Shown here piece after piece: positions 23,193 to 63,052 of a stretch of 64,000 nucleotides of DNA. A program made the translations under genes and the position numbers. The DNA is from Flectonema sp. DT1601 (lineage: Eukaryota): contig OZ025786.1 of NCBI GenBank assembly GCA_964019425.1, positions 1,302,001 through 1,366,000 on the forward strand. The letters run 5' to 3'. How positions within the stretch are numbered: the stretch's first letter is position 1; every line of letters begins with the position of its first letter. The notes beneath the pieces are model-generated. The model was not told the DNA's origin. It made no database searches and saw only the letters and a program-made list of their open reading frames with translations.

Positions 23193-26100
23193 GTGAACTA
23201 TCCAACCCTTGGACAATTCTGCTTGTCTAGGTTAGGAAGAGCCGACATTGAAGGATCAAAAGCAATGAACGCTTGGCTGGGTTTGCAGGCCCCAAAAGCT
23301 GAACGAAAAAATTGGGCCGTTCGAATCACTAACTTGCATGTTGTCGGTTGCAGTCATCACTCACCTGTCAGCATACTCTTTACCTTAATTACGCTCGATA
23401 TTGTTTCTGAGCCATTCTCTTTTCTATTTTTTTTTTTTTTTATTATTGCTACTTCACAACAAAAAAAAAAAGAAACACCGGGCCGGCGGTGTCATAAAGA
23501 TACTGGCAACCATCTCTCAGCCAACCCAGCCCCCGAGGCTTTGCAAGAGGCTATTTCGAGATCGGCTCTGGATGGGGATAAAACTTTAGTAGCCAAATGT
23601 CCTTTATGTTTTGAGACATACCTCAAAGGTCCAGTTGCGCATTTTAGACGTAACTGTAAGTTTAGTAAGGAATTTAAGGACTATAAGTCACGTTTTCCCC
23701 CATCTACCCACTCCCAAGTTAAAGATTGTTACCACTTACCTTGTCCAGAATGTGGTAAGCTTTTCAAAAGTATCGCTACGAGAGCGAAACACTGTGTTAA
23801 CGGTACATGTAAAGGTACACCTCTGTCTCCCCTCACAGGGAATAATTCAGACCTTGAACCTCCCTTTGTAGGAGAATCTGTAGATTTTAAAACTTCACAA
23901 ACAGCTTTCGTTCCTTATAACTCTACAACACCCACTTTTACCCCGTTACACCCGTCTCGTCTCAAATTCCGATCTTTTGGAACTGAATGGAAGGACATCG
24001 ACGTTTCTGCTGCAGAAAAACTTCAAACTTTCACCGTCGAAACAGAAAACTCTTCAAAACCTGCCGACCAACTTGATAAACTACTCAAAACGGTTTATCA
24101 AATATGTAGCGGTTTCTTTGAAGAAACAAAGCGGAATTTACCCCGCAAACAGAAATCAAGGGAAGAGGTCATCCTCGACCAAGAAAAACTTGAATGTCGT
24201 CTGGAAATGAAACAGCTAAGACAGGAGCTCCGCAAATCTGGGCCTTCTATAGAGAACGCTGTCAAATGGAAAGAGGCAAGAACGAGAATGAAAAGGATTT
24301 TCCGAATGTATCGGAATTTAGAAAAGAAAAATTTATTCAAAAAATTACAAGATAAATTTCGTCAAAATCCGTTTACTGCCATAAAAGAAGAACTCCAAAA
24401 AGAAGATCCTCAACCCCCCTCCCTTGATATTCCAGAGGAAAAAATAATTGAACATTTTAAAAACAATTATTGTGACAATGAAAAAAAAAAAACTGATTTC
24501 ACCCATCCCTCTTTTTTACCTAAGTCTGACTACAAGACAATGGATGATATCCAGTTCCCGAGCTTCGAACAGTTTGGTATTCTCTTATCAAAGAAAAAAA
24601 ACAAATGTGCCCCTGGTCCCAATTGCATACCTTATGTTGTATGGAAAAAGGTCCCAACTTTTATGGAAGCACTTTACAAGGTATTAAAGAGAATTTTCGA
24701 ACTCAAGGCCTATCCGGATAGTTGGGGCTTAGCATTTGTAACAATGCTCCCAAAGCCCAACTCCGATGGGAAAGACATCTCGAAAACGAGACCGATAGCT
24801 GTGGGCAACTGCGACGGGAAAATTTTTAATACGGTTATTCAGGAAGCTGTCGCAAGCCACACTCTTTCTAAATTTAATTTTCAAAAAGGCTTTAGGAAAG
24901 GTGTCTCTGGATGTATCGAACATGCCACGATCACCTCAGAGATTTTTAAAGAAGTGAAAGCTCTCCGGAAAAACCTAACAATTGTCTGGGTGGATTTGGC
25001 AGATGCTTTCGGCTCAGTCAAACATCAATTAATTTTCTTTGCTTTAAAATATTTCGGAATTCACGAAAGAATAATCGGTTTCTATAAAAGGTATTATTCC
25101 TCCATGCGCGTCCAAATCAGAGTTGGAGAAGGCCTGACGCCCACTATCCCTTTTGAAGTTGGTGTCTTTCAAGGCTGCGTTTCCTCCCCAACCCTTTTTA
25201 ATTTGGTATTCCAACTACTGCTCTTTTCCTTAGCAGTTCATCAACAGGAAGCCTACGAGTTTAACAATAAATCCCTCCAACTATTAGTTGCAGCTTTTGC
25301 TGATGATTTACAACTTACCACGTCATCAAAGGCGGGGGCAAAATTGCTAATCAAGTCGCTCGAACAGTTTCTTTCCTGGTCTCGAGGTATGAAAGCGAAA
25401 CCCCAGAAATGCATTGCCCACAGCTTTGTACAAGGGAAACCAGCTAACCCGGACCTGAAGATTAACAATGTTCCGATTACGAATCTCCAGGAAGCTGGAG
25501 AGTTCAAATACCTCGGGCGTTGGTTTGAGCCGAACGCCAAAGAACAGAAATTGCGAGAGCGCCTGACCACTTTTACCAGGAATTTTTTAAAAAAAGTCGA
25601 CGCCATGCCACTATATGGGTCTCAGAAGGCTTGGTCTGTCCAACACTTGTTATTGTCAAGGTTAACATGGAGTTTGATGATCCATGACTTATCTCTCCCT
25701 TTTGCCAAAAAAATGGACAAAATTATTAACCTTTTTTGAAGAAATGGTGGGGATTTGTCCGCTCTGCGAACACAGTCATCCTTTTTACCGGTTCAAAGAA
25801 CACTGTTGGTCTCAGACACAAAAGAGTTGAGACGCTATATAAACAAGCGCAATCAATTAAACTAGACATCCTCAGATCCTCACAGGACTCTGACATGCAC
25901 GGTGTCTACAATGTTATTATGGAGAAATCGTCCAACTGGTCGAAAAAGTTTTCAGCTTCTGCTGAGTGGGAGCGCCTTATTAAGTTTTTTTCTTACCGTT
26001 CTCTTGCGAAGCAATCAGCTGGTCTTGGTCACCGATTGCGCGATCTACGTACTACTCGCCCCGATCTCCTTAAGCGTTTTGAAGTGGAAGCCACAGATGA

Positions 26101-28253
26101 ACTACTGAACTCTTTGAATAAATTACAAGTCCAAGGTCAATGGAAGGAGTGGTCTAAATGTATGATAAACGACTTCACCTGGAATAAGGTACTTAGGGAG
26201 GGAAATCCTGCCTATATCTCATTTCAACTGAAAGCGGTTACAAACACCCTCCCCTCACAAGATAATTTAAAGAGGTGGAACATCACCAATGTGGACCAAA
26301 ATTGTGTTTTGTGTGGCAAAGTGAATCCTACCCTCAGGCATGTCTTAACAGGCTGTCCTGTCTCTTTAACACAAGGGAGGTTCACGTGGCGTCACGACAG
26401 CGTTCTAAAACGCATTGTTATCTTCTTGGAAGAGTTGATAATAAAAGCCAACAAAAGAAAAGAAAACCTCCCGCCTCCCTCTCAAACTTTTTTAAAAACA
26501 GGGGAAAATAAACCCCTAGAAAGAATTTCTAAAGAGACAGGCGAACTTTCACTAGCGAATGATTGGGTCATCCTCGACGATGTCGGTGATAACCGCCTAA
26601 TTGTTCCTCTTGAAGTGTGCCATGTCTCGTCCTCTCTAAGACCAGACATTTTTATTTATTCTTTTTTTGCGAAAAGAGCACTGATTTTGGAGCTGACGTG
26701 TCCAAATGAAGATCGTTTCGAAACCTCTCATGTCTTAAAGGAAAAGAAATACCTAAAGCTAAGAGACTCGATCATCGCTAATGGCTTCGACTGTAACATT
26801 TTTACTATTGAAGTTGGCGTACGAGGAAACATCTGCATGGACCAGCTGAACATCTGGACACGTCACATCGGTTCACCTTTAGCACCAACAAAAGCTTTAT
26901 TTTGTGAATGCACCAGAATCGCCAGACAGTGCTCATATGTTCTGTTCCAGACGAGGAACCTCCCCACGTGGCATTCAAGACCACTAATGCGCAGCATTAA
27001 AGAAGAACCTGCCACTGCAAGTTTTATAAAAGATGGTAAAGAAATCTTCCCTGTGGAAGAAGTCAAAATCCACAAAATAACAAAACTGAAAACGATCGAA
27101 AAGCTCACCATTGAAAGATCGTGGCTTGAGAAATGTTTTATCTGGCAAACTTGTTACGCATCGGCTCTTTCTATTCTACTTATTGCCAATGGTTCTTCCT
27201 CCCCGGCCCCTTCTGTTTTGTTAGATGAGGATGAGCTCACTGGACTCTCCTTGTCATTCTCTTCTATTTCTTCCATCTCTTTCCAGACTCCCCCACCTGA
27301 ACTCATGTCAACGGGATCGCAAACACTTCCTGCTGATTTCGCTATACTGCAACTGGAAATATTACTGCGCGGAAAAAACCGCACTAATTTCCAAATCTGC
27401 AAAAAACCGCACTAATTTTTCCACGCAGTAATATTTCCACCGCACTAATATTTCTGCTCAGAAGTGATTTTTTCTCCAGATGCATTTTTCTGCTGGTGCC
27501 TTACACAGCAAAAAAGCAACCAAATTTTTTTCTACCACCAGGTGGAAAAAACCGCGCTAATCTTTTCTCAAAAAAACCGCACTAATTTTTCCGCGCAGTA
27601 ATATTTCCCCGCAGTAATTATTCAGCGCAGTAATATTTCCAGTTGCAGTAGTGATAAGAACTCAATCTGACATGGGTTCTCAAACCCCCTTGTACAAAAA
27701 AAAAGAAGGAAAATTAAGGCTGAAACTTTCCTTGAAATGCCAGATTTTAGAAAACGAACTAGAACAAATGAAAGAACGAATGTTTTATGTTCTATTTTTA
27801 TTTTACTTTAATGCGATGTCAGCCTCCCTCGAGAAAGACAAGCAGTTACTAAATGGATTACCTGTTGAGATCAAAGCTACCAACCAGGATCCATCCTCAC
27901 TTCCTCCTGCACCCCCTGTTTTAATTATTGAAAAAGATAGAAAAGAATATGAACTTCTGGAAGGAGTAATTCAACGGTTAACAGCAGAACGCGATGAATC
28001 GAAGACTTCTCTTTCTGCACTAGTTCGACAATATGACTTAGTGGAAGATTACAGGAAACGTGAGCTCGCAAATCTGACTCAGAGAGCAGACCTATCGGAA
28101 ATGGCGCTCTTTAATTACCATCAAAGGTTTGTTCTTCTGTCGAACGAATTGGAGACCAAATGTAATGAGGAAAGAGAAAGTAAAATAAGACTTTTCTATA
28201 CTCAACAGGAGGTCGAGAGTTTGCGTGCCGCGCGTCCCCGTATGACCCACTTT
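23193..28253 (+). mobile_element. H copy 1 (outer): HERO-like R2-group non-LTR retrotransposon ORF, disrupted
   Basis: N-terminal Zn fingers (CPLC..HFRRNC; CPECGKLF..HC); RT (APGPN, RPIA, FQKGF, DLADAFGSV, GVFQGCVSSP, FADD, FKYLG); CVLC..HVLTGC; QGRFTWRHD; RPD..LELTCP..KKY..EVGVRG. One-base deletion near 25729 and a MITE at 27347. Confidence 0.9.
27347..27648. mobile_element. 302-bp MITE with TA target duplication (Tc1/mariner-type)
   Basis: 24-bp perfect TIR CTGCAACTGGAAATATTACTGCGC; empty site GCTATAGTG visible at ~32706 and ~42079; internal AAAAAACCGCACTAAT repeats. Confidence 0.9.
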
Positions 28254-30934
28254 TACCAGGAATTTTTTAAAAAAAGTCGACGCCATGCCACTATATGGGT
28301 CTCAGAAGGCTTGGTCTGTCCAACACTTGTTATTGTCAAGGTTAACATGGAGTTTAATGATCCATGACTTATCTCTCCCTTTTGCCAAAAAATTGGACAA
28401 AATTATTAAACCTTTTTTGAAGAAATGGTGGGGATTTGTCCGCTCTGCGAACACAGTCATCCTTTTTACCGGTTCAAAGAACACTGTTGGTCTCAGACAC
28501 AAAAGAGTTGAGACGCTATATAAACAAGCGCAATCAATTAAACTAGACATCCTCAGATCCTCACAGGACTCTGACATGCACGGTGTCTACAATGTTATTA
28601 TGGAGAAATCGTCCAATTGGTCGAAAAAGTTTTCAGCTTCTGCTGAGTGGGAGCGCCTTATTAAGTTTTTTTCTTACCGTTCTCTTGCGAAGCAATCAGC
28701 TGGTCTTGGTCACCGATTGCGCGATCTACGTACTACTCGCCCCGATCTCCTTAAGCGTTTTGAAGTGGAAGCCACAGATGAACTACTGAACTCTTTGAAT
28801 AAATTACAAGTCCAAGGTCAGTGGAAGGAGTGGTCTAAATGTATGATAAACGACTTCACCTGGAATAAGGTACTTAGGGAGGGAAATCCTGCCTATATCT
28901 CATTTCAACTGAAAGCGGTTACAAACACCCTCCCCTCACAAGATAATTTAAAGAGGTGGAACATCACCAATGTGGACCAAAATTGTGTTTTGTGTGGCAA
29001 AGTGAATCCTACCCTCAGGCATGTCTTAACAGGCTGTCCTGTCTCTTTAACACAAGGGAGGTTCACGTGGCGTCACGACAGCGTTCTAAAACGCATTGTT
29101 ATCTTCTTGGAAGAGTTGATAATAAAAGCCAACAAAAGAAAAGAAAACCTCCCGCCTCCCTCTCAAACTTTTTTAAAAACAGGGGAAAATAAACCCCTAG
29201 AAAGAATTTCTAAAGAGACAGGCGAACTTTCACTAGCGAATGATTGGGTCATCCTCGACGATGTCGGTGATAACCGCCTAATTGTTCCTCTTGAAGTGTG
29301 CCATGTCTCGTCCTCTCTAAGACCAGACATTTTTATTTATTCTTTTTTTGCGAAAAGAGCACTGATTTTGGAGCTGACGTGTCCAAATGAAGATCGTTTC
29401 GAAACCTCTCATGTCTTAAAGGAAAAGAAATACCTAAAGCTAAGAGACTCGATCATCGCTAATGGCTTCGACTGTAACATTTTTACTATTGAAGTTGGCG
29501 TACGAGGAAACATCTGCATGGACCAGCTGAACATCTGGACACGTCACATCGGTTCACCTTTAGCACCAACAAAAGCTTTATTTTGTGAATGCACCAGAAT
29601 CGCCAGACAGTGCTCATATGTTCTGTTCCAGACGAGGAACCTCCCCACGTGGCATTCAAGACCACTAATGCGCAGCATTAAAGAAGAACCTGCCACTGCA
29701 AGTTTTATAAAAGATGGTAAAGAAATCTTCCCTGTGGAAGAAGTCAAAATCCACAAAATAACAAAACTGAAAACGATCGAAAAGCTCACCATTGAAAGAT
29801 CGTGGCTTGAGAAATGTTTTATCTGGCAAACTTGTTACGCATCGGCTCTTTCTATTCTACTTATTGCCAATGGTTCTTCCTCCCCGGCCCCTTCTGTTTT
29901 GTTAGATGAGGATGAGCTCACTGGACTCTCCTTGTCATTCTCTTCTATTTCTTCCATCTCTTTCCAGACTCCCCCACCTGAACTCATGTCAACGGGATCG
30001 CAAACACTTCCTGCTGATTTCGCTATACTGCAACTGGAAATATTACTGCGCGGAAAAAACCGCACTAATTTCCAAATCTGCAAAAAACCGCACTAATTTT
30101 TCCACGCAGTAATATTTCCACCGCACTAATATTTCTGCTCAGAAGTGATTTTTTCTCCAGATGCATTTTTCTGCTGGTGCCTTACACAGCAAAAAAGCAA
30201 CCAAATTTTTTTCTACCACCAGGTGGAAAAAACCGCGCTAATCTTTTCTCAAAAAAACCGCACTAATTTTTCCGCGCAGTAATATTTCCCCGCAGTAATT
30301 ATTCAGCGCAGTAATATTTCCAGTTGCAGTAGTGATAAGAACTCAATCTGACATGGGTTCTCAAACCCCCTTGTACAAAAAAAAAGAAGGAAAATTAAGG
30401 CTGAAACTTTCCTTGAAATGCCAGATTTTAGAAAACGAACTAGAACAAATGAAAGAACGAATGTTTTATGTTCTATTTTTATTTTACTTTAATGCGATGT
30501 CAGCCTCCCTCGAGAAAGACAAGCAGTTACTAAATGGATTACCTGTTGAGATCAAAGCTACCAACCAGGATCCATCCTCACTTCCTCCTGCACCCCCTGT
30601 TTTAATTATTGAAAAAGATAGAAAAGAATATGAACTTCTGGAAGGAGTAATTCAACGGTTAACAGCAGAACGCGATGAATCGAAGACTTCTCTTTCTGCA
30701 CTAGTTCGACAATATGACTTAGTGGAAGATTACAGGAAACGTGAGCTCGCAAATCTGACTCAGAGAGCAGACCTATCGGAAATGGCGCTCTTTAATTACC
30801 ATCAAAGGTTTGTTCTTCTGTCGAACGAATTGGAGACCAAATGTAATGAGGAAAGAGAAAGTAAAATAAGACTTTTCTATACTCAACAGGAGGTCGAGAG
30901 TTTGCGTGCCGCGCGTCCCCGTATGACCCACTTT
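28254..30934 (+). repeat. 2,681-bp tandem duplication of the H ORF segment, including the MITE
   Basis: Identical junction CCCACTTT|TACCAGG at 28253 and 30934; ORF starts at 28285 and 30966 differ by 2,681. Confidence 0.9.
30028..30329. mobile_element. 302-bp MITE, duplicated copy
   Basis: Same TIRs and same site as 27347. Confidence 0.9.
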
Positions 30935-33900
30935 TACCAGGAATTTTTTAAAAAAAGTCGACGCCATGCCACTATATGGGTCTCAGAAGGCTTGGTCTGT
31001 CCAACACTTGTTATTGTCAAGGTTAACATGGAGTTTAATGATCCATGACTTATCTCTCCCTTTTGCCAAAAAATTGGACAAAATTATTAAACCTTTTTTG
31101 AAGAAATGGTGGGGATTTGTCCGCTCTGCGAACACAGTCATCCTTTTTACCGGTTCAAAGAACACTGTTGGTCTCAGACACAAAAGAGTTGAGACGCTAT
31201 ATAAACAAGCGCAATCAATTAAACTAGACATCCTCAGATCCTCACAGGACTCTGACATGCACGGTGTCTACAATGTTATTATGGAGAAATCGTCCAATTG
31301 GTCGAAAAAGTTTTCAGCTTCTGCTGAGTGGGAGCGCCTTATTAAGTTTTTTTCTTACCGTTCTCTTGCGAAGCAATCAGCTGGTCTTGGTCACCGATTG
31401 CGCGATCTACGTACTACTCGCCCCGATCTCCTTAAGCGTTTTGAAGTGGAAGCCACAGATGAACTACTGAACTCTTTGAATAAATTACAAGTCCAAGGTC
31501 AGTGGAAGGAGTGGTCTAAATGTATGATAAACGACTTCACCTGGAATAAGGTACTTAGGGAGGGAAATCCTGCCTATATCTCATTTCAACTGAAAGCGGT
31601 TACAAACACCCTCCCCTCACAAGATAATTTAAAGAGGTGGAACATCACCAATGTGGACCAAAATTGTGTTTTGTGTGGCAAAGTGAATCCTACCCTCAGG
31701 CATGTCTTAACAGGCTGTCCTGTCTCTTTAACACAAGGGAGGTTCACGTGGCGTCACGACAGCGTTCTAAAACGCATTGTTATCTTCTTGGAAGAGTTGA
31801 TAATAAAAGCCAACAAAAGAAAAGAAAACCTCCCGCCTCCCTCTCAAACTTTTTTAAAAACAGGGGAAAATAAACCCCTAGAAAGAATTTCTAAAGAGAC
31901 AGGCGAACTCTCACTAGCGAATGATTGGGTCATCCTCGACGATGTCGGTGATAACCGCCTAATTGTTCCTCTTGAAGTGTGCCATGTCTCGTCCTCTCTA
32001 AGACCAGACATTTTTATTTATTCTTTTTTTGCGAAAAGAGCACTGATTCTGGAGCTGACGTGTCCAAATGAAGATCGTTTCGAAACCTCTCATGTCTTAA
32101 AGGAAAAGAAATACCTAAAGCTAAGAGACTCGATCATCGCTAATGGCTTCGACTGTAACATTTTTACTATTGAAGTTGGCGTACGAGGAAACATCTGCAT
32201 GGACCAGCTGAACATCTGGACACGTCACATCGGTTCACCTTTAGCACCAACAAAAGCTTTATTTTGTGAATGCACCAGAATCGCCAGACAGTGCTCATAT
32301 GTTCTGTTCCAGACGAGGAACCTCCCCACGTGGCATTCAAGACCACTAATGCGCAGCATTAAAGAAGAACCTGCCACCGCAAGTTTTATAAAAGATGGTA
32401 AAGAAATCTTCCCTGTGGAAGAAGTCAAAATCCACAAAGTAACAAAACTGAAAACGATCGAAAAGCTCACCATTGAAAGATCGTGGCTTGAGAAATGTTT
32501 TATCTGGCAAACTTGTTACGCATCGGCTCTTTCTATTCTACTCATTGCCAATGGTTCTTCTTCCTCCCCGGCCCCTTCTTTTTTGTTAGATGAGGATGAG
32601 CTCACTGGACTCTCCTTGTCATTCTCTTCTATTTCTTCCATCTCTCTCCAGAATTCCCCACCTGAACTCATGTCAACGGGATCGCAAACACTTCCTGCTG
32701 ATTTCGCTATAGTGATAAGAAGTCAATCTGACATGGGTTCCCAAACCCCCTTGTACAATAAAAAAGAAGGAAGATTAAGGCTGAAACTTTCCTTGAAATG
32801 CCAGATTTTAGAAAACGAACTAGAACAAATGAAAGAACGAATGTTTTATGTTCTATTTTTATTTTACTTTAATGCGATGTCAGCCTCCCTTGAGAATGAC
32901 AAGCAGCTACTGAATGGATTGTCTATTGAGAACAAAGCATCCAAACAACGGGCCGCCGAGAGTGTATCTCACAGCCCACTCCCTTTAAATCTATCCGCAC
33001 CCCCATCTGTCTTTAACGTAGAAACGGAACAGAAAAAACGTGAACTATTGGAAAAAGAGAATCAACACCTGATCGCTGAATGTGATTTAGTGAAAAGTTC
33101 TCTTCTCTCATTAGTTCAAAGAACTAACTCTCTGGAGGAAAAAAGGACGAGCGAGCTGGCGCGACAATCACAAAGAGCGGACCACGCTGAAATGTTTTAT
33201 TTCAACTTACAACAAAGGTTCATTCTATTAAACAATGAATTAGAATCTAAGTGTAGGGACGAAACTGGAACAAAAATTCAACTCTATTTGTCTCAACAAG
33301 AGGTCGCAACATTGCGTGCTGGCCCTCAACTGTCCCATTTTTCCCAACAATTTTCCCCAACACCCCCTTTTTTATTCGAATCAACGTCCACGGTAAAGAA
33401 TTATCGACTCCCTCTCATCGCAACAACCTATTACTCCTGGACTCCCAAACCCCGTCTTTCCTTTTTTTTTAAACCTCATTCTCCATTGATCACGTTCCCT
33501 TCTGAACTGTCTCAAAGTAGACTACTGGTATCGTCTTCTGCTCAAACGGAACAAGAAAAAGACAGTGCGGCGACCTCATCGACGGAAGATTCACCTATTG
33601 CGAGGCAATGGTCCGAAGGTAGACTCGATTTACTGGACAACTACTGTCAAGCGGTAAGTGACTCTCTCCAGACAAATGAGAAAGTGGCGCTGCTCTCGGA
33701 AAAACTAGTGGAAGAGCAACGTCGATGCTCCGAGTTGAGCTATCAACAGAAGACTATCCATAAAGAACAACTGGATCATTCCATGTTGTTGATGGAGATG
33801 GCCAGTGAGCTCTCTGAGCAACTCTATTTGGCAAAAGACCAAAACAGAGCTCTCAAATTTCAGTTACAAACATGGGCAAATGGTTTTAACCCACCCGAAA

Positions 33901-34505
33901 AGGAAGCGCAAGAAGAAAATGAGACCCCAAAGCGTCCGAGGGAGCGCCTATCCCAAAAAAAGCGAACTCCACCCTCAACGAATCCTCATGATCGCAGAAG
34001 AATCTTTTTAGATGACGATTGCTAAGTTCTAGTTTCTATTAGTATTAAATTATTTGTATTATTTTGTCGATATGTTTATGTCTGTCCGATCATAACGTCA
34101 ATCAGATTAATTGTTAATTGTAATTGGTTTGAGCGCTTATCAAAAAAAAAAAAAAGCGAACTCCAACCTCAACGAACTTTCATGATCGCAGAAGAATCTT
34201 TTTAGATGACGATTGCTAAGTTCTAGTTTCTATTAGTATTTATTTATTTGTATTATTTTGTCGATATGTTTATGTCCGTCAGATCATAACGTTAATCAGA
34301 TTAATTGTCAATTGTTAATTGTAAATGGTCTAAACCCCAATCCAAGTTCCCAAGGCTTGGCATAGATTTGAGTGACGCCTTACTGGCCTCCTCATCCTCT
34401 ATGAGTGGTGAGGGGGCCAGCAATGGTTTTTTTTTTTTTTCTCTTATTTCCTTTTTTCTTTTTCTTTTACTCTAATAGGAAATATTTTTGAACAAAATGT
34501 GATTA

Positions 34506-34540
<35 letters not shown>

Positions 34541-36297: not shown

Positions 36298-36328
<31 letters not shown>

Positions 36329-38956: not shown

Positions 38957-38988
<32 letters not shown>

Positions 38989-39387
38989 ATCTCCCTGCTA
39001 TCCCTCATATCCCCACAATAATATTATACCTTTTCATTTTCTCTTTCCTTTTCTGGTCTTTTTTTTTTTCTTTTTTTCCTTTTTCATACAACGTTTTTTA
39101 TTTATATATATATATTTTTTTTTTTTTTTTTCATGTTTGATTATTTCCTCTTCATTTTTTTTTTTCTTTTCTTTTCTTTCTTTTTTTTTTTTTTTCCTCT
39201 GCCTCTCTCTTAATTCTGTTCGTTTCTTTGAAACGAAAATTCATTTGAATATTATTCCTTGGTCAGCAACCATCATTGTCGCCCTTTGGGCCTGTTAAAA
39301 AAAAATAAAATAAAAAGAAAGTTTACATCGGGAATAGGGCAGGAGCCAAAAGCTCCCAGTCCGTTACTTCCCACTTTATCGAAATTC
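30935..39387 (+). mobile_element. H copy 3: 5'-truncated ORF (variant B tail, stop 34025), 3' UTR, satellite array and cap
   Basis: The host-copy sequence CCCACTTT^AGTCAACAAG is split exactly around it and resumes at 39388. Confidence 0.85.
35780..38960 (+). repeat. Satellite array of ~139-bp (A) and ~113-bp (B) units
   Basis: Core GAATAAACAATGTTATCATTG(T)nATCGATCGACTATGTCGAT...TTTTCCGTCCTGGTCAAGACGCTAAACTGATTG; A-unit starts at 37356, 37495 and 37634. Confidence 0.95.
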
Positions 39388-43738: not shown

Positions 43739-43770
<32 letters not shown>

Positions 43771-49100: not shown

Positions 49101-49473
49101 AAAAAAAAAAAAAAAAAAAAAAAAAGAGCATCTCCCTGCTATCCCTCATATCCCCACAATAATATTATACCTTTTCATTTTCTCTTTCCTTTTCTGGTCT
49201 TTTTTTTTTCTTTTTTTTCCTTTTTCATACAACGTTTTTTATTTATATATATATTTTTTTTTTTTTTTTTTTTTCATGTTTGATTATTTCCTCTTCATTT
49301 TTTTTTTCTTTTCTTTTCTTTCTTTTTTTTTTTTTTTCCTCTGCCTCTCTCTTAATTCTGTTCGTTTCTTTGAAACGAAAATTCATTTGAATATTATTCC
49401 TTGGTCAGCAACCATCATTGTCGCCCTTTGGGCCTGTTAAAAAAAAATAAAAATAAAAAGAAAGTTTACATCG

Positions 49474-50307
49474 GAGTTGAATTTCCAGGTGAGATTTGGA
49501 CTGTTAGCTTTTGGCTAAGGCCCTCCCTGAAGAGCAAGAACAAAAAAACTACTCACACCTGAAGAAAACATACACAAAGAACACACTGTAAGCTGTGTGT
49601 GTATTTTGTGTTTGTCACAACAGGAGAGAAAAGAAAGAATGTCAAGGTTGGTCACCTTGCCTATCAACGCACAACATTGGTGGTCTCTACTAGACCCTGA
49701 GTGATCCCACTGGATCTCTCATCGTTCATAGTACCCTGTGTGAAGTTATAAAATCAAAGGTAAACTATGAACTACAAATGACTTAGCCTGTTATTATAAT
49801 GCCACAGGCAGGCCCTGCATTCAGCAACTATCCAGCAGTGCTTGGATGTCCTGATCTTCTTCTAAAAAAAAGAAAGAAAAACAAAACTGTAGCTGGGATC
49901 ACTCAGGATCAACAGACTACCAATGCTACCTGTTGTACTTGCTCACTATGGGGGGTGATGCCAAACACCCAGAAGTACTTAACTACTTTCCTTCTTGCTG
50001 CCCAGGAGTTTCTGACCAGAACTAATAGAAAATAAAAAGTAGATGGGAAACAATAAAAAGTAAAATGGATATAACTGAAGTTAAACAAGACAAATGAGGT
50101 AACAGACCAGAACAGAAAGAGGATTGTAATAGAAGATTACAAATAAAAGAAATGCAAGTATCAACACATAATCAAGATACACCAGCAGCTAACAAACAAC
50201 ATAAAATTGAAGATCAGTTGCCAGAGTATTTCAACCATGGTAGAATACTCGCCCCTCTGGCAGGGATTATCCCAGACTTGTCCTTTAATTTAGTTGGACA
50301 CCATGGC
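49474..50307 (-). mobile_element. Family X copy inserted in an H cap
   Basis: Splits TACATCG^GGAATAGGGC without a clear TSD. Confidence 0.85.
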
Positions 50308-50477
50308 AGGAATAGGGCAGGAGCCAAAAGCTCCCAGTCCGTTACTTCCCACTTTATCGAAATTCATTATATCACCCCTCTTTGTCCTCTAGCCTCAATT
50401 CCTCCGACAATGCCGCAGAGTGAAGCTCTCGACCGCACGCCGACCAAGATTTTACGACAAGAGAGTCACGTTATCTC

Positions 50478-52883
50478 GGAGTTGAATTACCAGGTGAGAT
50501 TTGGACAGTTAGCTTTTGGCTAAGGCCCTCCCTGAAGAGCAAGAACAGAAAAACTACTCACACCTGAAGAAAACATACACAAAGAACACACTGTAAGCTG
50601 TGTGTGTATTTTGTGTTTGTCACAACAGGAGAGAAAAGAAAGAATGTCAAGGTTGGTCACCTTGCCTATCAACGCACAACATTGGTGGTCTCTACTAGAC
50701 CCTGAGTGATCCCACTGGATCTCTCATCGTTCATAGTACCCTGTGTGAAGTTATAAAATCAAAGGTAAACTATGAACTACAAATGACTTAGCCTGTTATT
50801 ATAATGCCACAGGCAGGCCCTGCATTCAGCAACTATCCAGCAGTGCTTGGATGTCCTGATCTTCTTCTAAAAAAAAGAAAGAAAAACAAAACTGTAGCTG
50901 GGATCACTCAGGATCAACAGACTACCAATGCTACCTGTTGTACTTGCTCACTATGGGGGGTGATGCCAAACACCCAGAAGTACTTAACTACTTTCCTTCT
51001 TGCTGCCCAGGAGTTTCTGACCAGAACTAATAGAAAATAAAAAGTAGATGGGAAACAATAAAAAGTAAAATGGATATAACTGAAGTTAAACAAGACAAAT
51101 GAGGTAACAGACCAGAACAGAAAGAGGATTGTAATAGAAGATTACAAATAAAAAAAAATGCAAGTATCAACACATAATCAAGATACACCAGCAGCTAACA
51201 AACAACATAAAATTGAAGATCAGTTGCCAGAGTATTTCAACCATGGTAGAATACTCGCCCCTCTGGCAGGGATTATCCCAGACTTGTCCTTTAATCTAGT
51301 TGGACACCATGGCTTACAACCCTTCCAGAGGGAAGCACCATTATGACTTCTATTTTTTTTCTTCAAGAAAATCATAAGGTGGTAACAAAGAAAAATGCTA
51401 AGAGGAACCCCCTATTAACACCTAAGACATCTAAACTGCAGCCCAGCCTATGCCCAATGCACTAACAGGTCATTCCCTCACACTCAGATCAAAAAATCAA
51501 AGTTCAGAGTGCATCTTAGCGTGAATGAGAGAATTTCCTCCCGCTTATTTTGAACAAAAGGGATAGGAGAAGGGATAGAAAACGAACATAAAAATAAGAT
51601 TCTAAGTGAGAAACACTTAGCAGAAATACTTAGCAGCTTTTAAGGAGCTGAAAAGCAAAAAAAAAATCTAAGTGAGAAACACTTAGTAGAAACAATTTGT
51701 AGCTAATTAAGCTGAAAATAAAAAAATAAAAAATTTCTAAGTGAGAAATACTTAGCAACTTTTAGAACAAATATTTCAGTAAATAACCTGTAATGATTAA
51801 ACCATTACAGGTTTGATGTCAAAACTGACAAGGACTGAGTTGAATTACCAGGTGAGATTTGGACAGTTAGCTTTTGGCTAAGGCCCTCCCTGAAGAGCAA
51901 GAACAGAAAAACTACTCACACCTGAAGAAAACATACACAAAGAACACACTGTAAGCTGTGTGTGTATTTTGTGTTTGTCACAACAGGAGAGAAAAGAAAG
52001 AATGTCAAGGTTGGTCACCTTGCCTATCAACGCACAACATTGGTGGTCTCTACTAGACCCTGAGTGATCCCACTGGATCTCTCATCGTTCATAGTACCCT
52101 GTGTGAAGTTATAAAATCAAAGGTAAACTATGAACTACAAATGACTTAGCCTGTTATTATAATGCCACAGGCAGGCCCTGCATTCAGCAACTATCCAGCA
52201 GTGCTTGGATGTCCTGATCTTCTTCTAAAAAAAAGAAAGAAAAACAAAACTGTAGCTGGGATCACTCAGGATCAACAGACTACCAATGCTACCTGTTGTA
52301 CTTGCTCACTATGGGGGGTGATGCCAAACACCCAGAAGTACTTAACTACTTTCCTTCTTGCTGCCCAGGAGTTTCTGACCAGAACTAATAGAAAATAAAA
52401 AGTAGATGGGAAACAATAAAAAGTAAAATGGATATAACTGAAGTTAAACAAGACAAATGAGGTAACAGACCAGAACAGAAAGAGAATTGTAATAGAAGAT
52501 TACAAATAAAAAAAAATGCAAGTATCAACACATAATCAAGATACACCAGCAGCTAACAAACAACATAAAATTGAAGATCAGTTGCCAGAGTATTTCAACC
52601 ATGGTAGAATACTCGCCCCTCTGGCAGGGATTATCCCAGACTTGTCCTTTAATCTAGTTGGACACCATGGCTTACAACCCTTCCAGAGGGAAGCACCATT
52701 ATGACTTCTATTTTTTTTCTTCAAGAAAATCATAAGGTGGTAACAAAGAAAAATGCTAAGAGGAACCCCCTATTAACACCTAAGACATCTAAACTGCAGC
52801 CCAGCCTATGCCCAATGCACTAACAGGTCATTCCCTCACACTCAGATCAAAAAATCAAAGTTCAGAGTGCATCTTAGCGTGAA
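50478..52883 (-). mobile_element. Two tandem family X copies (~1,358-bp period) inserted in the outer H ORF
   Basis: GAGTTGAATTACCAGG at ~50479 and 51837; the ORF is split at GTTATCTC^TTAAAGAG. Confidence 0.85.
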
Positions 52884-53847
52884 TTAAAGAGAATACACCT
52901 ATTGCGAGACAATGGTCCGAGGGTAGGATTGACTTACTCGAGAATTACTGTCGAGCAGTAGATGACTCTCTCGAAACAAACGAGAAAGCGGCAGAGCTCT
53001 CAGAACAACTTCTGGATGCCCAACTTCGCCTCTCGGAGCTGAATCACCAACGGTGTACAACTCACGCAGAGCAGCTTGAGCAATCCATGATGTTAACGAT
53101 TTTCGATAAAGTGGGAAGTAACGGACTGGGAGCTTTTGGCTCCTGCCCTATTCCCGATGTAAACTTTCTTTTTATTTTTTATTTTTTTTAACAGGCCCAA
53201 AGGGCGACAATGATGGTTGCTGACCAAGGAATAATATTCAAATGAATTTTCGTTTCAAAGAAACGAACAGAATTAAGAGAGAGGCAGAGAAAAAAAAGAA
53301 AAAAAAGAAAGAAAAGAAAAAAGAAAAAAAATATGAAGAGGAAATAATCAAACATGAAAAAAAAAAAAAAAAAAAATATATAAATAAAAAAAACGTTGTA
53401 TGAAAAAGGAAAAAAAAAATAAGGACTGGCGAGCGATTTAAATGCTCAACTCGCCTTGGCACGGTCTCAAATTGCGGCCCTGAAGTTCCAATTAGCTTCA
53501 TGGGCAGAAGGTTTGAGTCCGCCAGACACAGAAGAACATGAGGAAAATGAAACTCCGCCGAGAAAGTCTGAGCGTTCAACTCTGAAAAAACGAACCCCTC
53601 CATCAAGATATCGTTACAATCGAAGGAGATGTTCTGCTGATGACGTTCACGGTGACTCCACCCCCTTGTAATTCTCTTTTTCCTTACTTTCACATCACTT
53701 TGTTTATTTAGTTTTTTAGCTTATTTATTATTTATTGTTCGTTTTTGTTTGTATTATTTTATCGATATGTTTATGTCCGTCAGATCATAACGTTAATCAG
53801 GTTAATTGTTAATTGTTAATTATAATTGTTAATTGTTAATTATAAAT
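52884..53847 (+). pseudogene. End of the outer H ORF (stop 53671) with an inverted cap insert at 53099-53422
   Basis: Matches ~42941-43560 once the insert is removed. Confidence 0.85.
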
Positions 53848-54302
53848 CTTTTTTCTTTAAAAATAAATAAAAAAGAATTTAAAAAAAAAAAAAAAAAAGA
53901 ATAAACAATGTTATCATTGTTTTTTTATCGATCGACTATGTCGATTACTTTCTATTTTCCGTCCTGGTCAAGACGCTAAACTGATTGTTTTTTTCAAAAT
54001 TAATAAAAAAGAATATAATAAAAAAAATAAAAAAAAAATAAAAAAAAAATAAAAAAAAAATAAAAAAAAAAAGATTAAACAATGTTATCATTGTTTTTTT
54101 TTATCGTTCGACCTTGTCGACTAATTTCTATTTTTTTTTCTTTAAAAATAAATAAAAAAGAATAAAAAAAAAAAAAAAAAAAAGAATAAACAATGTTATC
54201 ATTGTTTTTTTATCGATCGACTATGTCGATTACTTTCTATTTTCCGTCCTGGTCAAGACGCTAAATTGATTGTTTCTTCTTTAAAAATAAATTAAAAAAA
54301 AA

Positions 54303-54337
<35 letters not shown>

Positions 54338-54704
54338 AATAAACAATGTTATCATTGTTTTTATCGATCGGCTTTGTCGACTAATTTCTATTTTCCGTCC
54401 TGGTCAAGACGCTAAACTGATTGTTTTTCTAAAAATAAATAAAAAGAATAAAAAAAAAAAAAAAAAAAAAAGAATAAACAATGTTATCATTGTTTTTTTA
54501 TCGATCGACTCTGTCGACTAATTTCTATTTTCCGTTTTCTTTTCTTTAAAAAATAAATAAAAAGAATAAAAAAAAAAAAAAAAAAAAAAAGAATAAACAA
54601 TGTTATCATTGTTTCTTATCGATCGACTTTGTCGACTAATTTCTATTTTCCGTCCTGGTCAAGACGCTAAACTGATTGTTTTTTCTTTAAAAATAAATAA
54701 AAGA

Positions 54705-54738
<34 letters not shown>

Positions 54739-56145
54739 AATAAACAATGTTATCATTGTTTTTTTTTATCGATCGACTTTGTCGACTAATTTCTATTTTC
54801 CGTCCTGGTCAAGACGCTAAACTGATTAGTTTTTTCTTTAAAAAATAAATAAAAAGAATAAAAAAAAAAAAAAAAAAAATGAATAAACAATGTTATCATT
54901 GGTTCTTATCGATCGACTTTGTCGACTAATTTCTATTTTCCGTCCTGGTCAAGACGCTAAACTGATTGTTTATTCCTTTAAAAAATAAATAAAAGATATA
55001 AAAAAAAAAAAAAAAAAAAAGAAATAAACAATGTTATCATTGTTTTTTTTATCGATCGACTTTGTCGATTACTGTCTACTTTCCGTCCTGGTCAAGACGC
55101 TAAACTGATTTTTTTTTTTTTTTTAAAAATTAATAAAAAGAATATAAAAAAAAAAAAAAAAAAAAAATGAATAAACAATGTTATCATTGTTTCTTATCGA
55201 TCGACTTTGTCGACTAATTTCTATTTTCCGTCCTGGTCAGGACGCTAAACTGATTGTTTTTTCTTTAAAAAATAAATAAAAAGATAAATAAAAAAAAAAA
55301 AAAAAAAAGGAATAAACAATGTTATCATTGTTTTTTTTATCGATCGACTATGTCGATTACTTTCTATTTTCCGTCCTGGTCAGGACGCTAAACTGATTGT
55401 TTTTTCTTTAAGAAATAAATAAAAAGTTAAAAAAAAAAAAAAAAAAAAAAAAGGAATAAACAATGTTATCATTGTTTTTTTTTTATCGATCGACTATGTC
55501 GATTACTTTCTATTTTCTGTCCTGGTCAAGACGCTAAACGGAAGTTTTTTCTTTAAAATAATTAAAAGGATTTAAAAAAAAAAAAAAAAAAAAAAAAAGA
55601 ATAAACAATGTTATCATTGTTTTTTTTTCTATCGATCAACTATGTCGATTAATTTCTATTTTCCGTCCTGATCGAGACACTAAACTGATTGTTTCCTTTT
55701 TTTTTAAATAATAAATAAAAAAAAAAAAATAAAAAAAAAAAAAAAAAAGAGCATCTCCCTGCTATCCCTCATATCCCCACAATAATATTATACCTTTTCA
55801 TTTTCTCTTTCCTTTTCTGGTCTTTATTTTTTTTTTCCTTTTTCATACAACGTTTTTTTATTTATATATTTTTTTTTTTTTTTTTCATGTTTGATTATTT
55901 CCTCTTCATATTTTTTTTTCTTTTTTCTTTTCTTTCTTTTTTTTCTTTTTTTTCTCTGCCTCTCTCTTAATTCTGTTCGTTTCTTTGAAACGAAAATTCA
56001 TTTGAATATTATTCCTTGGTCAGCAACCATCATTGTCGCCCTTTGGGCCTGTTAAAAAAAATAAAAAATAAAAAGAAAGTTTACATCGGGAATAGGGCAG
56101 GAGCCAAAAGCTCCCAGTCCGTTACTTCCCACTTTATCGAAATTC
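53848..56145 (+). mobile_element. 5'-truncated H insertion made only of satellite plus cap
   Basis: Splits ATAAAT(GG)TCTAAACCCC with a 2-bp loss. Confidence 0.85.
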
Positions 56146-57540
56146 TCTAAACCCCAATCCAAGTTCCCAAGGCTTGGCATAGATTTGAGTGACGCCTTAC
56201 TGGCCTCCTCATCCTCTATGAGTGGTGAGGGGGCCAGCAATGGTTTTTTTTTTTTTTTTTTCTCTTATTTCTTTTTTTCTTTTTCTTTTACTCTAATATG
56301 AAATATTTTTGAACAAAATGTGATTATTAATTTAAAAAAAAAAAAAAAAAATAATAATGTAAATGAATAAAAAAAAAAAAAAAACATGCCTTGGGAATAC
56401 AATCAAAGCCCCAATTAATCGGTCCTTTCTTTTTCCTTCTTGTCAAGTGATCGCTCCACTCGACGATCACCAAAACCGATTGTATTTATATCTGTTCTTT
56501 TCTCAACGATCGGCTATACCGACCATTTTTTTTTTTATAAATAATTGTTTTCTTCTTCTCGACGATCAGTTCCAATTGATCGACCTTTTTTTTTTTTTTC
56601 CTTTATTCCTTCCATCCCTCCCGCTCCCCTAATTTTAAATAAAAACAAGATCAGCTCAGCTTGATCGTTAATCTTTTTTTCTTTTTTTAATTTAAACTGA
56701 TTGTATTTATATCTGTTTATTTTTCTCAACGATCGGCTATACCGATCAACCTTTAAAATAATTTCTTCTTCTCGACGATCAGATCCAAATGATCAACCTT
56801 TTCTTTTTTTTTCCTCTATTCCTTCCATCCCTCCCGCTCCCCTATTTGTAATAAAAACAAGATCAGCTCAGCTTGATCGTTAATTTTTTTTCTTTCTTTT
56901 TTGTTGGTCCTAGTCAAGACCTTAAACTGACTAACCGGTCTTAATTTTAAATAAGTGTTAACCTAGTTTCTCTTTTCCTTTTCAATTTCCTTTTAATACT
57001 CTCTATCTGGTCTGTTATGTCATATTTCTCATTTAATTTTATCATCCATTTTACTTTTCACTGTTTCCCATCTACATTTTATTTTCAAATAGTTACGGTC
57101 TGTTAAAAAAAAAAAAAGTTTAAATAAGTTAAATAGAACATGTTAACTCAATTCCTCAATTCTTCCGTCATGGTCATGACATTCTTTTTCGTTTCTCTAA
57201 ATGCACAAGAGATACCATCACTCATGAGATACCAACGCACATACGAGATACCAGCACTCCAGAGATACCGACACGCTAGAGATACCAAGTCACTTGAGAT
57301 ACCTCCTTGTAAATTAATTCCCGGTATTTCAAATTTGAATTGATAGTGTCAACTCTGCTTGCTGCTCTTGTTAATGTGTTGTCTCCTGACAGTGATCTTA
57401 ACTCCTGTAAAAAGAAAAAAAAAAAAAGAAATCAAAAAAGAAGAATTTTCAAACGAAGTTATAACAACCCCTACCACCCATTATGATCAATTCCGCTTGT
57501 TTTTTTTTTTTTTATAACAAAAAAAAAATAAAAAATTATA
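56146..57540 (+). mobile_element. H 3' UTR of the outer copy
   Basis: Homologous to ~34328-35780 and ~43563-45025. Confidence 0.85.
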
Positions 57541-57561
57541 AAAGATTAAACAATGTTATCA

Positions 57562-57610
<49 letters not shown>

Positions 57611-58407
57611 CTATCGACTATGTCGATTACTTTCTATTTTCCGTCCTGGTCAAGACGCTAAACTGATTGTTTTTTTTTCAAAATTAATAAAAAAGAATAT
57701 AAAAAAAATAAAAAAAAAAAAGAATAAACAGTGTTATCATTGTTTTTTTTTATCGTTCGACTTTGTTGACTAATTTCTATTTTCCATTTTTTTTCTTTTT
57801 AAAAAATAAATAAAAAGAATTAAAATAAAAAAAAAAAAAAAAAGAATAAACAATGTTATCATTGTTTTTTTTATCGATCGACTATGTCGATTACTTTCTA
57901 TTTTCCGTCCTGGTCAGGACGCTAAACTGATTGTTTTTTCTTTAAAAATAAATAAAAAGAATAAAAAAAAAAAAAAAGGAATAAACAATGATATCATTGT
58001 TTTTTTTTTATCGATCGACTATGTCGATTACTTACTATTTTCCGTCCTGGTCAAGACGCTAAACTGATTGTTTTTTCTTTAAAATAATTAAAAAGATTTA
58101 AAAAAAAAAAAAAAAAAAAAAAATGAATAAACAATGTTATCATAGTTTTTTTTTCTATCGATCAACTATGTCGATTAATTTCTATTTTCCGTCCTGATCG
58201 AGACGCTAAACTGATTGTTTCCTTTTTTTAAATAATAAATAAGAAAAAAAAAAAAAAAAAAAAAAAAAAGAGCATCTCCCTGCTATCCCTCATATCCCCA
58301 CAATAATATTATACCTTTTCATTTTCTCTTTCCTTTTCTGGTCTTTTTTTTTTCTTTTTTTTCCTTTTTCATACAACGTTTTTTATTTATATTTATATTT
58401 ATATATA

Positions 58408-59186
58408 TCAGTCATTCCTTTTTTTTGCGAACAAAAAACACCATTTTCTCACCGCCTGAGCAAGGTTACACGATATGTTACTTTTGCTCGATTTTTTATT
58501 TTTTGGAATCGGGGAGGGTGCGATCTGTAAAATTAGGCATAGGGATATACTTTTAAACATGGTAAGTGCTGCTAAAAAGAGATAAACGTCTCTTTGCAAG
58601 ATTTCCTTGGTACTACTCAATGATAAATATTAATCCCAGACCTGGAATGGAAAGATCGAGAAAATCTGAGTAAAAAACACCCTAATTTTTTTTTTTTTAC
58701 TAATTTTTTTTCCTTCTCCCGAACTCAAGAGATATGCACCTTTTTGCTAACTAATCAACCCTAGTAGCAATTATGTAAGGAAAATGTTGCATCTATATAA
58801 AGAAAGTGTTTTCATTAAGTATCAAAGTAGGTCCAAAAAGACAGGTAGTAACAATCTGCCTCACCGGCACATGCTGAGTACTCTTTAATATATTTTTGCT
58901 CGATTATTTTTTCTCTGAATCCCGCTGGGTCAGCAGTGTAAAATTAGACCCTTCGATTAATTTTTAGTTTTGGTACTTGTCCACGGCTGAGCTGATTTAG
59001 TAAACCACAAAATCTCTTTTCTCAATTCGGGAGACAAGTATGTGATGCCAACCTCCCGATTTCGGACGGAAATGAACCCAACGATGCAGCGCATTAAAAT
59101 GCCGCTTCGATCGAAATTTTTACAATTTTTTTTTGAAAATTTTTTTCAGTGTCCAGAATTTGTTCGCAAAAAAAAGGAATGACTGA
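58408..59186. mobile_element. ~780-bp non-autonomous TIR element in a (TA)n tract
   Basis: TIR TCAGTCATTCC(T)nGCGAACAAA / TTTGTTCGC(A)nGGAATGACTGA; absent from other caps. Confidence 0.85.
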
Positions 59187-60674
59187 TATATATTTTTTTT
59201 TTTTTTTTTTTTTCATGTTTGATTATTTCCTCTTCATTTTTTTTTTTCTTTTCTTTTCTTTCTTTTTTTTTTTTTTTTCCTCTGCCTCTCTCTTAATTCT
59301 GTTCGTTTCTTTGAAACGAAAATTCATTTGAATATTATTCCTTGGTCAGCAACCATCATTGTCGCCCTTTGGGCCTGTTAAAAAAAATAAAAATAAAAAG
59401 AAAGTTTACATCGGGAATAGGGCAGGAGCCAAAAGCTCCCAGTCCGTTACTTCCCACTTTATCGAAATTCAGTTATCGATCGACTATGTCGATTACTTTC
59501 TATTTTCCGTCCTGGTCAAGACGCTAAACTGATTGTTTTTTTTTTTTTTTTCCAAAATTAATAAAAAAGAATATAAAAAAAAAAAAATAAAAAAAAGAAT
59601 AAACAATGTTATCATTGTTTTTTTATCGTTCGACTTTGTCGACTAATTTCTATTTTCCGTTTTTTCTTAAAAAGTAAATAAAAAGAATTTAAAAAAAAAA
59701 AAAAAAAAAAAGAATAAACAATGTTATCATTGTTTTTTTATCGATCGACTATGTCGATTACTTTCTATTTTCCGTCCTGGTCAAGACGCTAAACTGATTG
59801 TTTTTTTTTTTTTTTCAAAATTAATAAAAAAGAATATAAAAAAAAAAAAATAAAAAAAAAAATAAACAATGTTATCATTGTTTTCTTATCGTTCGACTTT
59901 GTCGACTAATTTCTATTTTCCGTTTTTTTTTTCTTAAAAAATAAATAAAAAGAATTTAAAAAAAAAAAAAAAAAAAAGAATAAACAATGTTATCATTGTT
60001 TTTTTATCGATCGACTATGTCGATTACTTTCTATTTTCCGTCCTGGTCAAGACGCTAAACTGATTGTTTTTTTTTTTTTTTTCAAAATTAATAAAAAAGA
60101 ATATAAAAAAAAAAAATAAAAAAAAGAATAAACAATGTTATCATTGTTTTTTTATCGTTCGACTTTGTCGACTAAATTCTATTTTCCGTTTTTTCTCTTA
60201 AAAAAAATAAATAAAAAGAATTTAAAAAAAAAAAAAAAAAAAGAATAAACAATGTTATCATTGTTTTTTTATCGATTCTGTCCTGGTCAGGACGCTAAAC
60301 TGATTGTTTTTTTTTTTCAAAATTAATAAAAAAGATTATAAAATAAAAAAAATAAAAAAAAGAATAAACAATGTTATCATTGTTTTTTTATCGTTCGACT
60401 TTGTCGACTAATTTCTATTTTCCGTTTTTTTCTCTTAAAAAATAAAGGGAAAACCTCTAATTCAACAAAAATAGTTTGCGAAATCGCCAACTCCCTACAA
60501 AAAAAAGTTGTCCACCAGGACTCGAACTTGACCCAAAAATTTGGCTTGCGGCGGGTTTTTTGTTTTTTAGCCTACTAAGCTGGGAAGAGTGCAAGCCCCC
60601 CAAGGGGGGGGAGCCCTAATAAAAGCCCGCCTGTCCCGTACAAAGTCCAACCTGAAAAAACAAATTTGCAACTG

Positions 60675-60706
<32 letters not shown>

Positions 60707-63050: not shown

Positions 63051-63052
<2 letters not shown>

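What the first reader, a model, noticed from the sequence alone, without database searches (positions are those of the whole stretch)
23193..59470. Russian-doll self-insertion: one element split into six pieces over ~35 kb
Seen: the outer copy reassembles from 23193-28253, 39388-39524, 50366-50477, 52884-53098, 53423-53847 and 56146 onward. Each gap is filled by H or X sequence with a fixed 3' end and a variable 5' end. Targets lose 0-2 bp (TA at 39524/50366, GG at 53847/56146), with no TSD and no poly(A). Bases after the cap differ between sites. Inference: regional or self-targeting rather than sequence-specific cleavage, unlike R2.
Basis: partly seen in the sequence, partly recalled or inferred. 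Interest (0 to 1): 0.8.

Follow-up and report, generated by a model that had tools for sequence, protein, structure and literature searches.

The report
Retrotransposon piled up inside itself
One copy of an R2-like jumping gene in a eukaryote is split by five later insertions of itself or of a non-coding element sharing its 3' hairpin, likely because it cuts DNA with little sequence preference and piles up in transposon-rich patches, much as known self-nesting elements do.

Summary
The nesting is real. Six pieces of one element (H) are collinear with an intact inner copy, and the five junctions lose 0, 2, 2, 0 and 2 bp with no TSD or poly(A). Corrections: the start is about 23300-23446 (23193 lies in a 28S-derived fragment), two MITEs also split it, and gap 1 includes a 2.7-kb tandem duplication. 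H encodes RT, a zinc knuckle and a restriction-like endonuclease (R2 superfamily; HERO-like by recalled motifs). Its junction anatomy is ordinary R2-type; only the site specificity is missing. H and X end in the same hairpin with two compensatory pairs, so X likely uses H's machinery. Chimeric proteins from other contigs show 37 more H/X junctions at H ORFs, in both orientations and at scattered positions. There is no target consensus beyond weak 3' microhomology. Self-targeting is unproven: H/X also hit other transposons, and 11 of 14 ends in H/X matches their 78% share of the island. Self-nesting LINEs (Zepp, Cnl1) and non-specific RLE elements (HERO) are known. Five insertions in 876 bp and the lack of orientation bias remain unexplained.

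The parts
23446..28253 (+). Outer H copy A, piece 1: N-terminal zinc fingers, RT, zinc knuckle, RLE, start of C-terminal extension; 1-bp frameshift near 25727; true 5' end between about 23300 and 23446
27347..27648 (.). Y, 302-bp TIR element with TA TSD inside piece 1 (also 30028-30329 and 45669-45970); same site in another contig's H copy (P0072)
28247..30934 (+). Copy B: tandem duplication, 5' part identical to C and 3' part identical to A (crossover between A 26140 and 26548); unequal crossover or assembly join
30928..39387 (+). Copy C: 5'-truncated H (variant C-terminal ORF) with 3.2-kb satellite and cap; 7-nt 5' microhomology; 0 bp lost
39388..39524 (+). A piece 2
   Evidence: 137/137 to D 42688-42824
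39525..50365 (+). Gap 2: 203-bp satellite head, then copy D (39728-50365, 5'-truncated in RT), itself holding Y (45669-45970) and minus-strand X (49475-50308) in its cap; TA lost
50366..50477 (+). A piece 3
   Evidence: 112/112
50478..52883 (-). Gap 3: head-to-tail X dimer (1358-bp copy 50479-51836 plus 1048-bp truncated copy); CG lost
52884..53098 (+). A piece 4
   Evidence: 214/215
53099..53422 (-). Gap 4: 324-bp antisense H cap; 0 bp lost
53423..53847 (+). A piece 5 (ORF end, start of 3' UTR)
53848..56145 (+). Gap 5: 2.3-kb H 3' fragment (satellite plus cap); GG lost
56146..59470 (+). A piece 6: 3' UTR (variant type), short satellite, cap; split by TIR element Z at 58409-59185
39337..39362 (+). 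H 3' hairpin (example; 8 H copies in the window), 25 nt before the end
50503..50528 (-). X 3' hairpin (example; 6 X copies), same loop, two compensatory pairs, 24 nt before the end
20569..22249 (+). Older H 3'-UTR fragment holding an antisense cap (20939-21167) and a sense X (21363-22198)
14432..16229 (-). X (14432-15177) joined directly to an H 3' fragment (15177-16229), inside an endonuclease-VII ORF; nested insertion or template jump
19704..20435 (+). H 3' fragment inserted at the 5' part of a Penelope-like RT ORF
59471..64000 (+). H-type satellite downstream of A, split by a TIR element (60447-61604, 9-bp TSD) and an unassigned 950-bp sequence (62027-62975)

Best explanation
H is an R2-superfamily (RT plus restriction-like endonuclease) LINE whose copies sit nested in both orientations at unrelated sequences, likely because it inserts by target-primed reverse transcription with little sequence preference and accumulates in existing transposon islands, while the non-coding X, which shares H's 3' hairpin, is likely mobilised by the same or a closely related enzyme. 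Shown: domain content, fixed 3' and variable 5' ends, 0-2 bp loss, no TSD, the shared hairpin, scattered targets. Inferred: first nick by the RLE; priming at the hairpin-defined 3' end, sometimes helped by 1-3 nt of pairing with the target; second cut opposite or 2 bp upstream; 5' joining by microhomology. Also inferred: template jumps for the X-X and X-H joins, and that island confinement comes from chromatin preference and/or selection against hits in genes.
For: RVT_1 and zf-RVT hits. CCHC, RH and PD..E motifs are invariant or nearly so in 32 relatives. The model of the C-terminal part (pLDDT 84) has R2 proteins as all 7 PDB hits with E<=0.001, and the profile search ranks R2 first (E 3e-83). 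Junctions; the same anatomy is described for R2 (PMC2718515). Hairpin: 9 pairs, 100% paired, 2 pairs with changes on both sides, best register among slides; H end z=-3.4. 37 H/X-derived junctions on 31 of 95 H-family proteins, nearly all from other contigs: H sense 13 (+4 ambiguous), H antisense 11, X 3 sense and 6 antisense. No recurrent hotspot among 36 positions (p 0.10-0.17). Non-H targets exist: Penelope-like and endonuclease-VII ORFs in the window, one cap end with a flank absent from the window in run X1, and 14 unassigned protein junctions.
Against: Five insertions in 876 bp of an 8.2-kb copy (P about 6e-4, post hoc) are not explained by mere island preference. H/X-derived junctions (37) outnumber TIR-element junctions (7) and unassigned ones (14), which would fit self-preference. 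The X end alone does not fold better than shuffles (z=-0.46 over 102 nt), and the two compensatory pairs are one H-versus-X difference, not many events. The 3' microhomology signal (4 of 18 sites with >=3 nt, p=0.001) comes only from protein-derived sites; the 9 window sites overlap by at most 2 nt.
Confidence: 0.65

Rival explanations
1. True self-targeting: the H ribonucleoprotein is recruited to existing H DNA (for example to its satellite or cap, or to chromatin peculiar to H) and cuts nearby without a fixed sequence, giving positive feedback and dense nests.
For: Five insertions within 876 bp. Short H fragments bounded by two H/X junctions at other loci (P0125, P0147, P0128, P0044, P0055, P0132). 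Precedent in Cnl1 and Zepp.
Against: 11 of 14 ends in H/X equals the 78% H/X share of the island (an upper bound because inserts are counted). H/X hit other transposons. TIR elements also pile into H (7 protein junctions; Y, Z and the MULE-like element in the window), so the island attracts or tolerates everything. Spacing after a cap is not fixed (112, 133, 137, 158, 215, 303 bp and longer).
Confidence: 0.2
2. The cluster records repair of a repeatedly broken or recombining locus: H/X cDNA captured at pre-existing breaks, plus ectopic recombination between copies.
For: B is a clean C/A recombinant. A's left and right flanks do not form one empty site. A combines a D-type ORF with a different UTR variant.
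Against: All five gaps end at the element's 3' terminus (one with an extra base, one with a base change) and lose only 0-2 bp with pieces in order; break repair would be expected to give larger, variable losses (own knowledge).
Confidence: 0.1
3. Assembly artefact from a high-copy repeat.
For: Duplication B has no private differences from its two parents. None of 4 runs showed the filled junctions 1 or 2 (other samples, contigs only).
Against: Precise 3' ends, both orientations, copy-specific SNPs and non-templated bases; the same kinds of junction at 37 places in other proteins.
Confidence: 0.05
4. On X only: X is not a SINE-like passenger but the 3' tail of a sister autonomous family whose ORF is not in the window.
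For: H's own 3' UTR is over 5 kb, so truncated sisters would look non-coding. X shares a 99-bp, 79-81% segment with H's UTR. Diverged H relatives exist (P0003 88%, P0109 61%). No B-box match in X and no Rfam family above threshold.
Against: No ORF-bearing extension of X was seen in 6 window copies; the longest is 1358 bp.
Confidence: 0.4

Closest known systems
HERO clade of RLE non-LTR retrotransposons
   Same: Single ORF with RT, zinc knuckle and RLE; many members are not target-specific (PMC4640811, passage). Nearest Atlas clusters are mollusc, cnidarian and chordate RT zinc-binding proteins (0.97-0.98).
   Different: Clade placement not tested against named HERO sequences (the motif likeness is recalled). 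H adds an about 570-aa C-terminal extension, a multi-kb satellite in the 3' UTR, and dense nesting.
R2 (R2Bm, R2Tg, Drosophila R2)
   Same: Domain order and fold; 0 or -2 second cut, 5' truncation, microhomology, non-templated bases (PMC2718515); 3'-UTR structure recognition and template jumping (PMC10499050, PMC3414825).
   Different: No 28S site specificity: two intact R2 sites in the window are unused. No poly(A), unlike Drosophila R2.
Cnl1 of Cryptococcus
   Same: R2-superfamily element (PMC12810828) that inserts preferentially into itself and forms nested, 5'-truncated arrays (PMC9942834).
   Different: Cnl1 nests in tandem orientation at subtelomeres and TSDs are mentioned; H nests in both orientations without TSD. 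Chromosomal position unknown here.
Zepp and ZeppL of green algae
   Same: Nested clusters (1.5-42.3 kb in Coccomyxa) made mostly of 3' ends by insertion into existing copies (PMC3446292, PMC8226300).
   Different: L1 clade; tandem arrays; one cluster per chromosome, putatively centromeric; no satellite in Coccomyxa clusters. Not tested for H.
Stringent LINE/SINE pairs and R2 SIDEs
   Same: Non-coding partner with the LINE's 3' stem-loop and compensatory changes (PMC3747384, PMC3414825).
   Different: X is at least 1.36 kb, has no detected Pol III head or ribozyme, and shares only about 45 nt of the 3' end plus one 99-bp UTR segment with H.

Membership tests
RLE (R2-superfamily) non-LTR retrotransposon | RT followed by CCHC zinc knuckle and PD-(D/E)xK restriction-like endonuclease in one ORF | tested here: met
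RLE (R2-superfamily) non-LTR retrotransposon | Fixed 3' end, variable 5' truncation, no LTR | tested here: met
   8 H ends in the window, insert lengths 229 bp to 10.6 kb
R2 proper | Insertion at the conserved 28S rDNA site | tested here: not met
   18 unrelated targets; intact site twice in the window
R2 proper | 5' HDV-like ribozyme | tested here: inconclusive
   No ribozyme family in Rfam scan of 22150-23600; the true 5' end is not defined
HERO clade | RT phylogeny with named HERO elements | not tested
   No named HERO sequence was obtained (supplement search empty); motif likeness is recalled
HERO clade | Mostly non-specific integration | tested here: met
Self-targeting nested LINEs (Zepp, Cnl1) | Nested, 5'-truncated copies inside copies | tested here: met
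Self-targeting nested LINEs (Zepp, Cnl1) | Tandem (same) orientation | tested here: not met
Self-targeting nested LINEs (Zepp, Cnl1) | Preference for own copies over other DNA | tested here: inconclusive
Self-targeting nested LINEs (Zepp, Cnl1) | Confinement to centromere or subtelomere | not testable with these tools
   H-family proteins occur on about 70 contigs of distinct length; positions not available
Stringent SINE/SIDE partner (X) | 3' stem-loop shared with the LINE, with compensatory changes | tested here: met
Stringent SINE/SIDE partner (X) | Pol III head or 5' ribozyme and no own ORF | tested here: inconclusive
   No ORF >=150 aa within X, no B-box match, no Rfam family; 5' end undefined

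The most novel reading that the evidence does not exclude
H is an RLE retrotransposon that replaced sequence specificity with recognition of its own DNA or chromatin. It inserts in either orientation within a few hundred bases of earlier insertions and, because its 3' UTR carries an AT-rich satellite, builds satellite-rich islands on many chromosomes that could serve as centromeres, with X riding along through a 26-nt hairpin.
Probability: 0.15. Interest if true: 0.75.

Novelty: new variant of a known kind. Interest (0 to 1): 0.38.

Why it matters
If the preference is for self DNA or for a chromatin state, H would show how an R2-type enzyme can be steered without a fixed target sequence, and how a LINE can spread its own satellite. 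The H/X hairpin is a compact natural candidate for the RNA tag of a non-site-specific RLE enzyme and can be tested directly. If the nesting reflects only tolerated space, it is a well-resolved but ordinary transposon island.

Tried and rejected
No genome was held, so the genome-wide logo and enrichment test were replaced by chimeric proteins, which see only junctions touching the H ORF and cannot measure enrichment against unique DNA. Read check: only 367 bp around junctions 1-2 were laid on 4 runs. They show the uninterrupted H sequence across the junction-2 site in 4 of 4 runs and the junction-1 site in 2 of 4, and no filled junction; these are contigs of probably other samples, so this is no evidence either way. 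No RNA holder listed. Cap pattern in metagenome contigs: 0 hits; protein scan: 3 short loci at 26-39% identity, not used. The cap-peptide search found 2 proteins among 7 candidates, one being the window's own. The first target logo (p=0.55) had four misplaced sites and was redone. 6 of 15 protein junctions could not be placed to the base and were dropped. In the tally, native ends, frameshifts and tails under 6 aa (except the diagnostic EFR-stop) were left out, and labels were set by hand. Rejected: fixed nucleosome-like spacing after caps; recurrent hotspots; X as an LTR/TRIM (single copies keep one fixed end, no TSD); likeness of two targets to the cap sequence (not general). The Atlas did not place the host below Eukaryota. 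Earlier-findings look-ups returned nothing. The original Zepp paper was not held.

Full report
Setting. The first 9.8 kb hold three intron-free eukaryotic ORFs (AAA, YbjQ and RRM proteins). The remaining 54 kb are a transposon island, of which H and X make up about 78%.

Observation. The five junctions lose 0, TA, CG, 0 and GG. Flank duplication is 0-1 bp, while three DNA transposons in the same window show 2, 8 and 9 bp, so the check can see TSDs. The fillers are: H plus a duplication (+); satellite head plus H (+); an X dimer (-); a 324-bp H cap (-); and a 2.3-kb H 3' fragment (+). Six of 8 H ends read ...TTATCGAAATTC and two are variants; downstream bases differ; none has poly(A).

Corrections. 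Position 23193 is only the first codon after a stop. It lies in a degenerate LSU rRNA fragment on the minus strand, and H is traceable from 23446 through a protein of another contig (P0052). Two TIR elements also interrupt the outer copy. Segment 28247-30934 equals copy C in its 5' part and copy A in its 3' part with no private change: an unequal crossover or an assembly join, not a retro-insertion. Piece 6 has a variant UTR. A's two flanks do not form one empty site, so a deletion or recombination is also recorded here.

What H is. One ORF with two N-terminal zinc fingers, RT, CCHC knuckle, RH and PD..E motifs, then about 570 further residues. The key residues are invariant or nearly so in a 32-sequence alignment. 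The predicted fold of the knuckle-endonuclease part (pLDDT 84) matches R2 proteins in all 7 PDB hits with E<=0.001. The 3' UTR is about 1.6 kb of low-complexity sequence, then 0.7-4 kb of a 78-80% AT satellite with 110-150 bp units, then a 410-bp cap. The family is abundant: clusters of 235, 47, 14 and 12 proteins on about 70 contigs of distinct length (whether one assembly is not known), and 5 runs of 5 studies hold over half of its words. I call it HERO-like from recalled motifs only.

What X is. Non-coding, at least 1358 bp, with a fixed 3' end and variable 5' end. H and X end in the same hairpin, 25 and 24 nt before the terminus, with loop and outer stem identical and two inner pairs swapped G-C for U-A (14 of 14 copies match the pattern; 13 aligned, 9 pairs, 100% paired). 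This is one H-versus-X difference, and X alone folds no better than shuffles. It is the pattern described for stringent LINE/SINE pairs and R2 SIDEs (passages of PMC3747384 and PMC3414825). X may instead be the tail of a sister family.

Targets. Of 14 H/X 3' ends in the window, 11 lie in or join H/X (two may be template jumps), three lie in other sequence, and none lies in the gene block. This equals the H/X share (p=0.64). I examined 95 listed H-family proteins, a subset of the clusters, three of them the window's own. 31 carry 37 H/X-derived junctions (28 H, 9 X), 7 junctions are TIR elements, and 14 are sequences absent from the window (hand-labelled). Both orientations occur about equally. 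36 positions along the ORF show no significant recurrence. 18 sites placed to the base (9 window, 9 of 15 protein-derived tried) show no consensus (best column p=0.09) but a weak summed signal at -6..+6 (p=0.005), largely from overlap with the element's last bases: 4 of 18 sites share 3 nt against 0.4 expected (p=0.001), all four protein-derived. The R2 28S site is present twice and unused. One cap end in run X1 continues into sequence not in the window. The five junctions of A fall within 876 bp of 8.2 kb (P about 6e-4 under uniform placement, post hoc). At other loci only 5 of 34 mapped junctions fall in that interval, so it is a property of this copy, not of the sequence.

Mechanism (inferred). 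RLE nick at a nearly arbitrary site; priming at the hairpin-defined 3' end, at times with 1-3 nt of pairing; early termination; second cut opposite or 2 bp upstream; 5' joining by microhomology (7 nt at J1, 3 nt at J2) or non-templated bases. These match R2 junctions (PMC2718515 passages; PMC10499050 passages). The X-X dimer and the X-H join fit template jumping, shown in vivo for R2, but read-through or nested insertion fit as well. Why insertions concentrate is open: I put regional preference and/or selection at 0.65, active self-targeting at 0.2, repair or recombination at 0.1 and artefact at 0.05.

Comparison. Non-specific RLE elements are known (HERO, PMC4640811 passage; BLAG, PMC7650587 passages). 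Self-nesting LINEs are known: Zepp (passages of PMC3446292 and PMC8226300) and Cnl1, which is R2-superfamily (passages of PMC9942834 and PMC12810828). H differs in lacking orientation bias, TSD and poly(A), in carrying a satellite, and in having a hairpin-sharing partner. Two searches for this combination (15 listed of 275 and of 48) showed no paper on a HERO-like self-nesting element; most subscription journals and Repbase Reports are not searched, so this is weak. All papers were seen as passages or search listings only; one supplement set was searched for HERO without result. PMC13580325 passages added nothing decisive.

Verdict. A real, precisely resolved nest of a new R2-superfamily LINE and its likely passenger; a variant of known behaviour; self-targeting unproven. 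Interest 0.38.

Noticed in passing
window 60447-61604 and 16230-17260: TIR element (57-bp TIRs, 9-bp TSD, MULE-like) carrying a 28S rRNA fragment that includes the intact R2 site, plus a tRNA-like stretch; Pack-MULE-like capture of rDNA.
   Followed up: partly
window 22250-23290: Sequence starting with the same 10 terminal bases as that TIR element, with a tRNA-like stretch, a T run and a different, degenerate 3' LSU fragment on the minus strand (Rfam 69 bits); its right end is missing.
   Followed up: partly
window 21363, 50306 and protein P0057: Three X copies are 5'-truncated at or next to the same CCATGG position, about 835 bp from the 3' end; possible processing site or RT stop.
   Followed up: partly
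window 17569-19703 (-): Penelope-like RT ORF (by recalled motifs; weak RVT_1 hit) with a C-terminal OTU protease domain (Pfam E 1e-6).
   Followed up: no
window 13633-14431 (+): ORF with a weak endonuclease VII match, resembling the front of a Polinton-type DNA polymerase (recalled), cut by X.
   Followed up: no
window 10143-11815: Diverged piece of H's C-terminal ORF (85% over 204 bp) cut by a 1-kb TIR element that also interrupts H at five places in other proteins.
   Followed up: partly
window 32543-34330 vs 41919-43563: H has two versions of its C-terminal extension (69-94% identical) on a 99% identical RT-RLE core, and two UTR versions; families look mosaic.
   Followed up: partly
window 11822-11898: An 80-bp motif 75-78% like the segment shared by X and H's UTR, in sequence belonging to neither; possibly a third related element.
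   Followed up: no
window 1-6747 (-): Intron-free ORF of at least 2249 aa with AAA ATPase domains (RNF213-like by recalled likeness).
   Followed up: no
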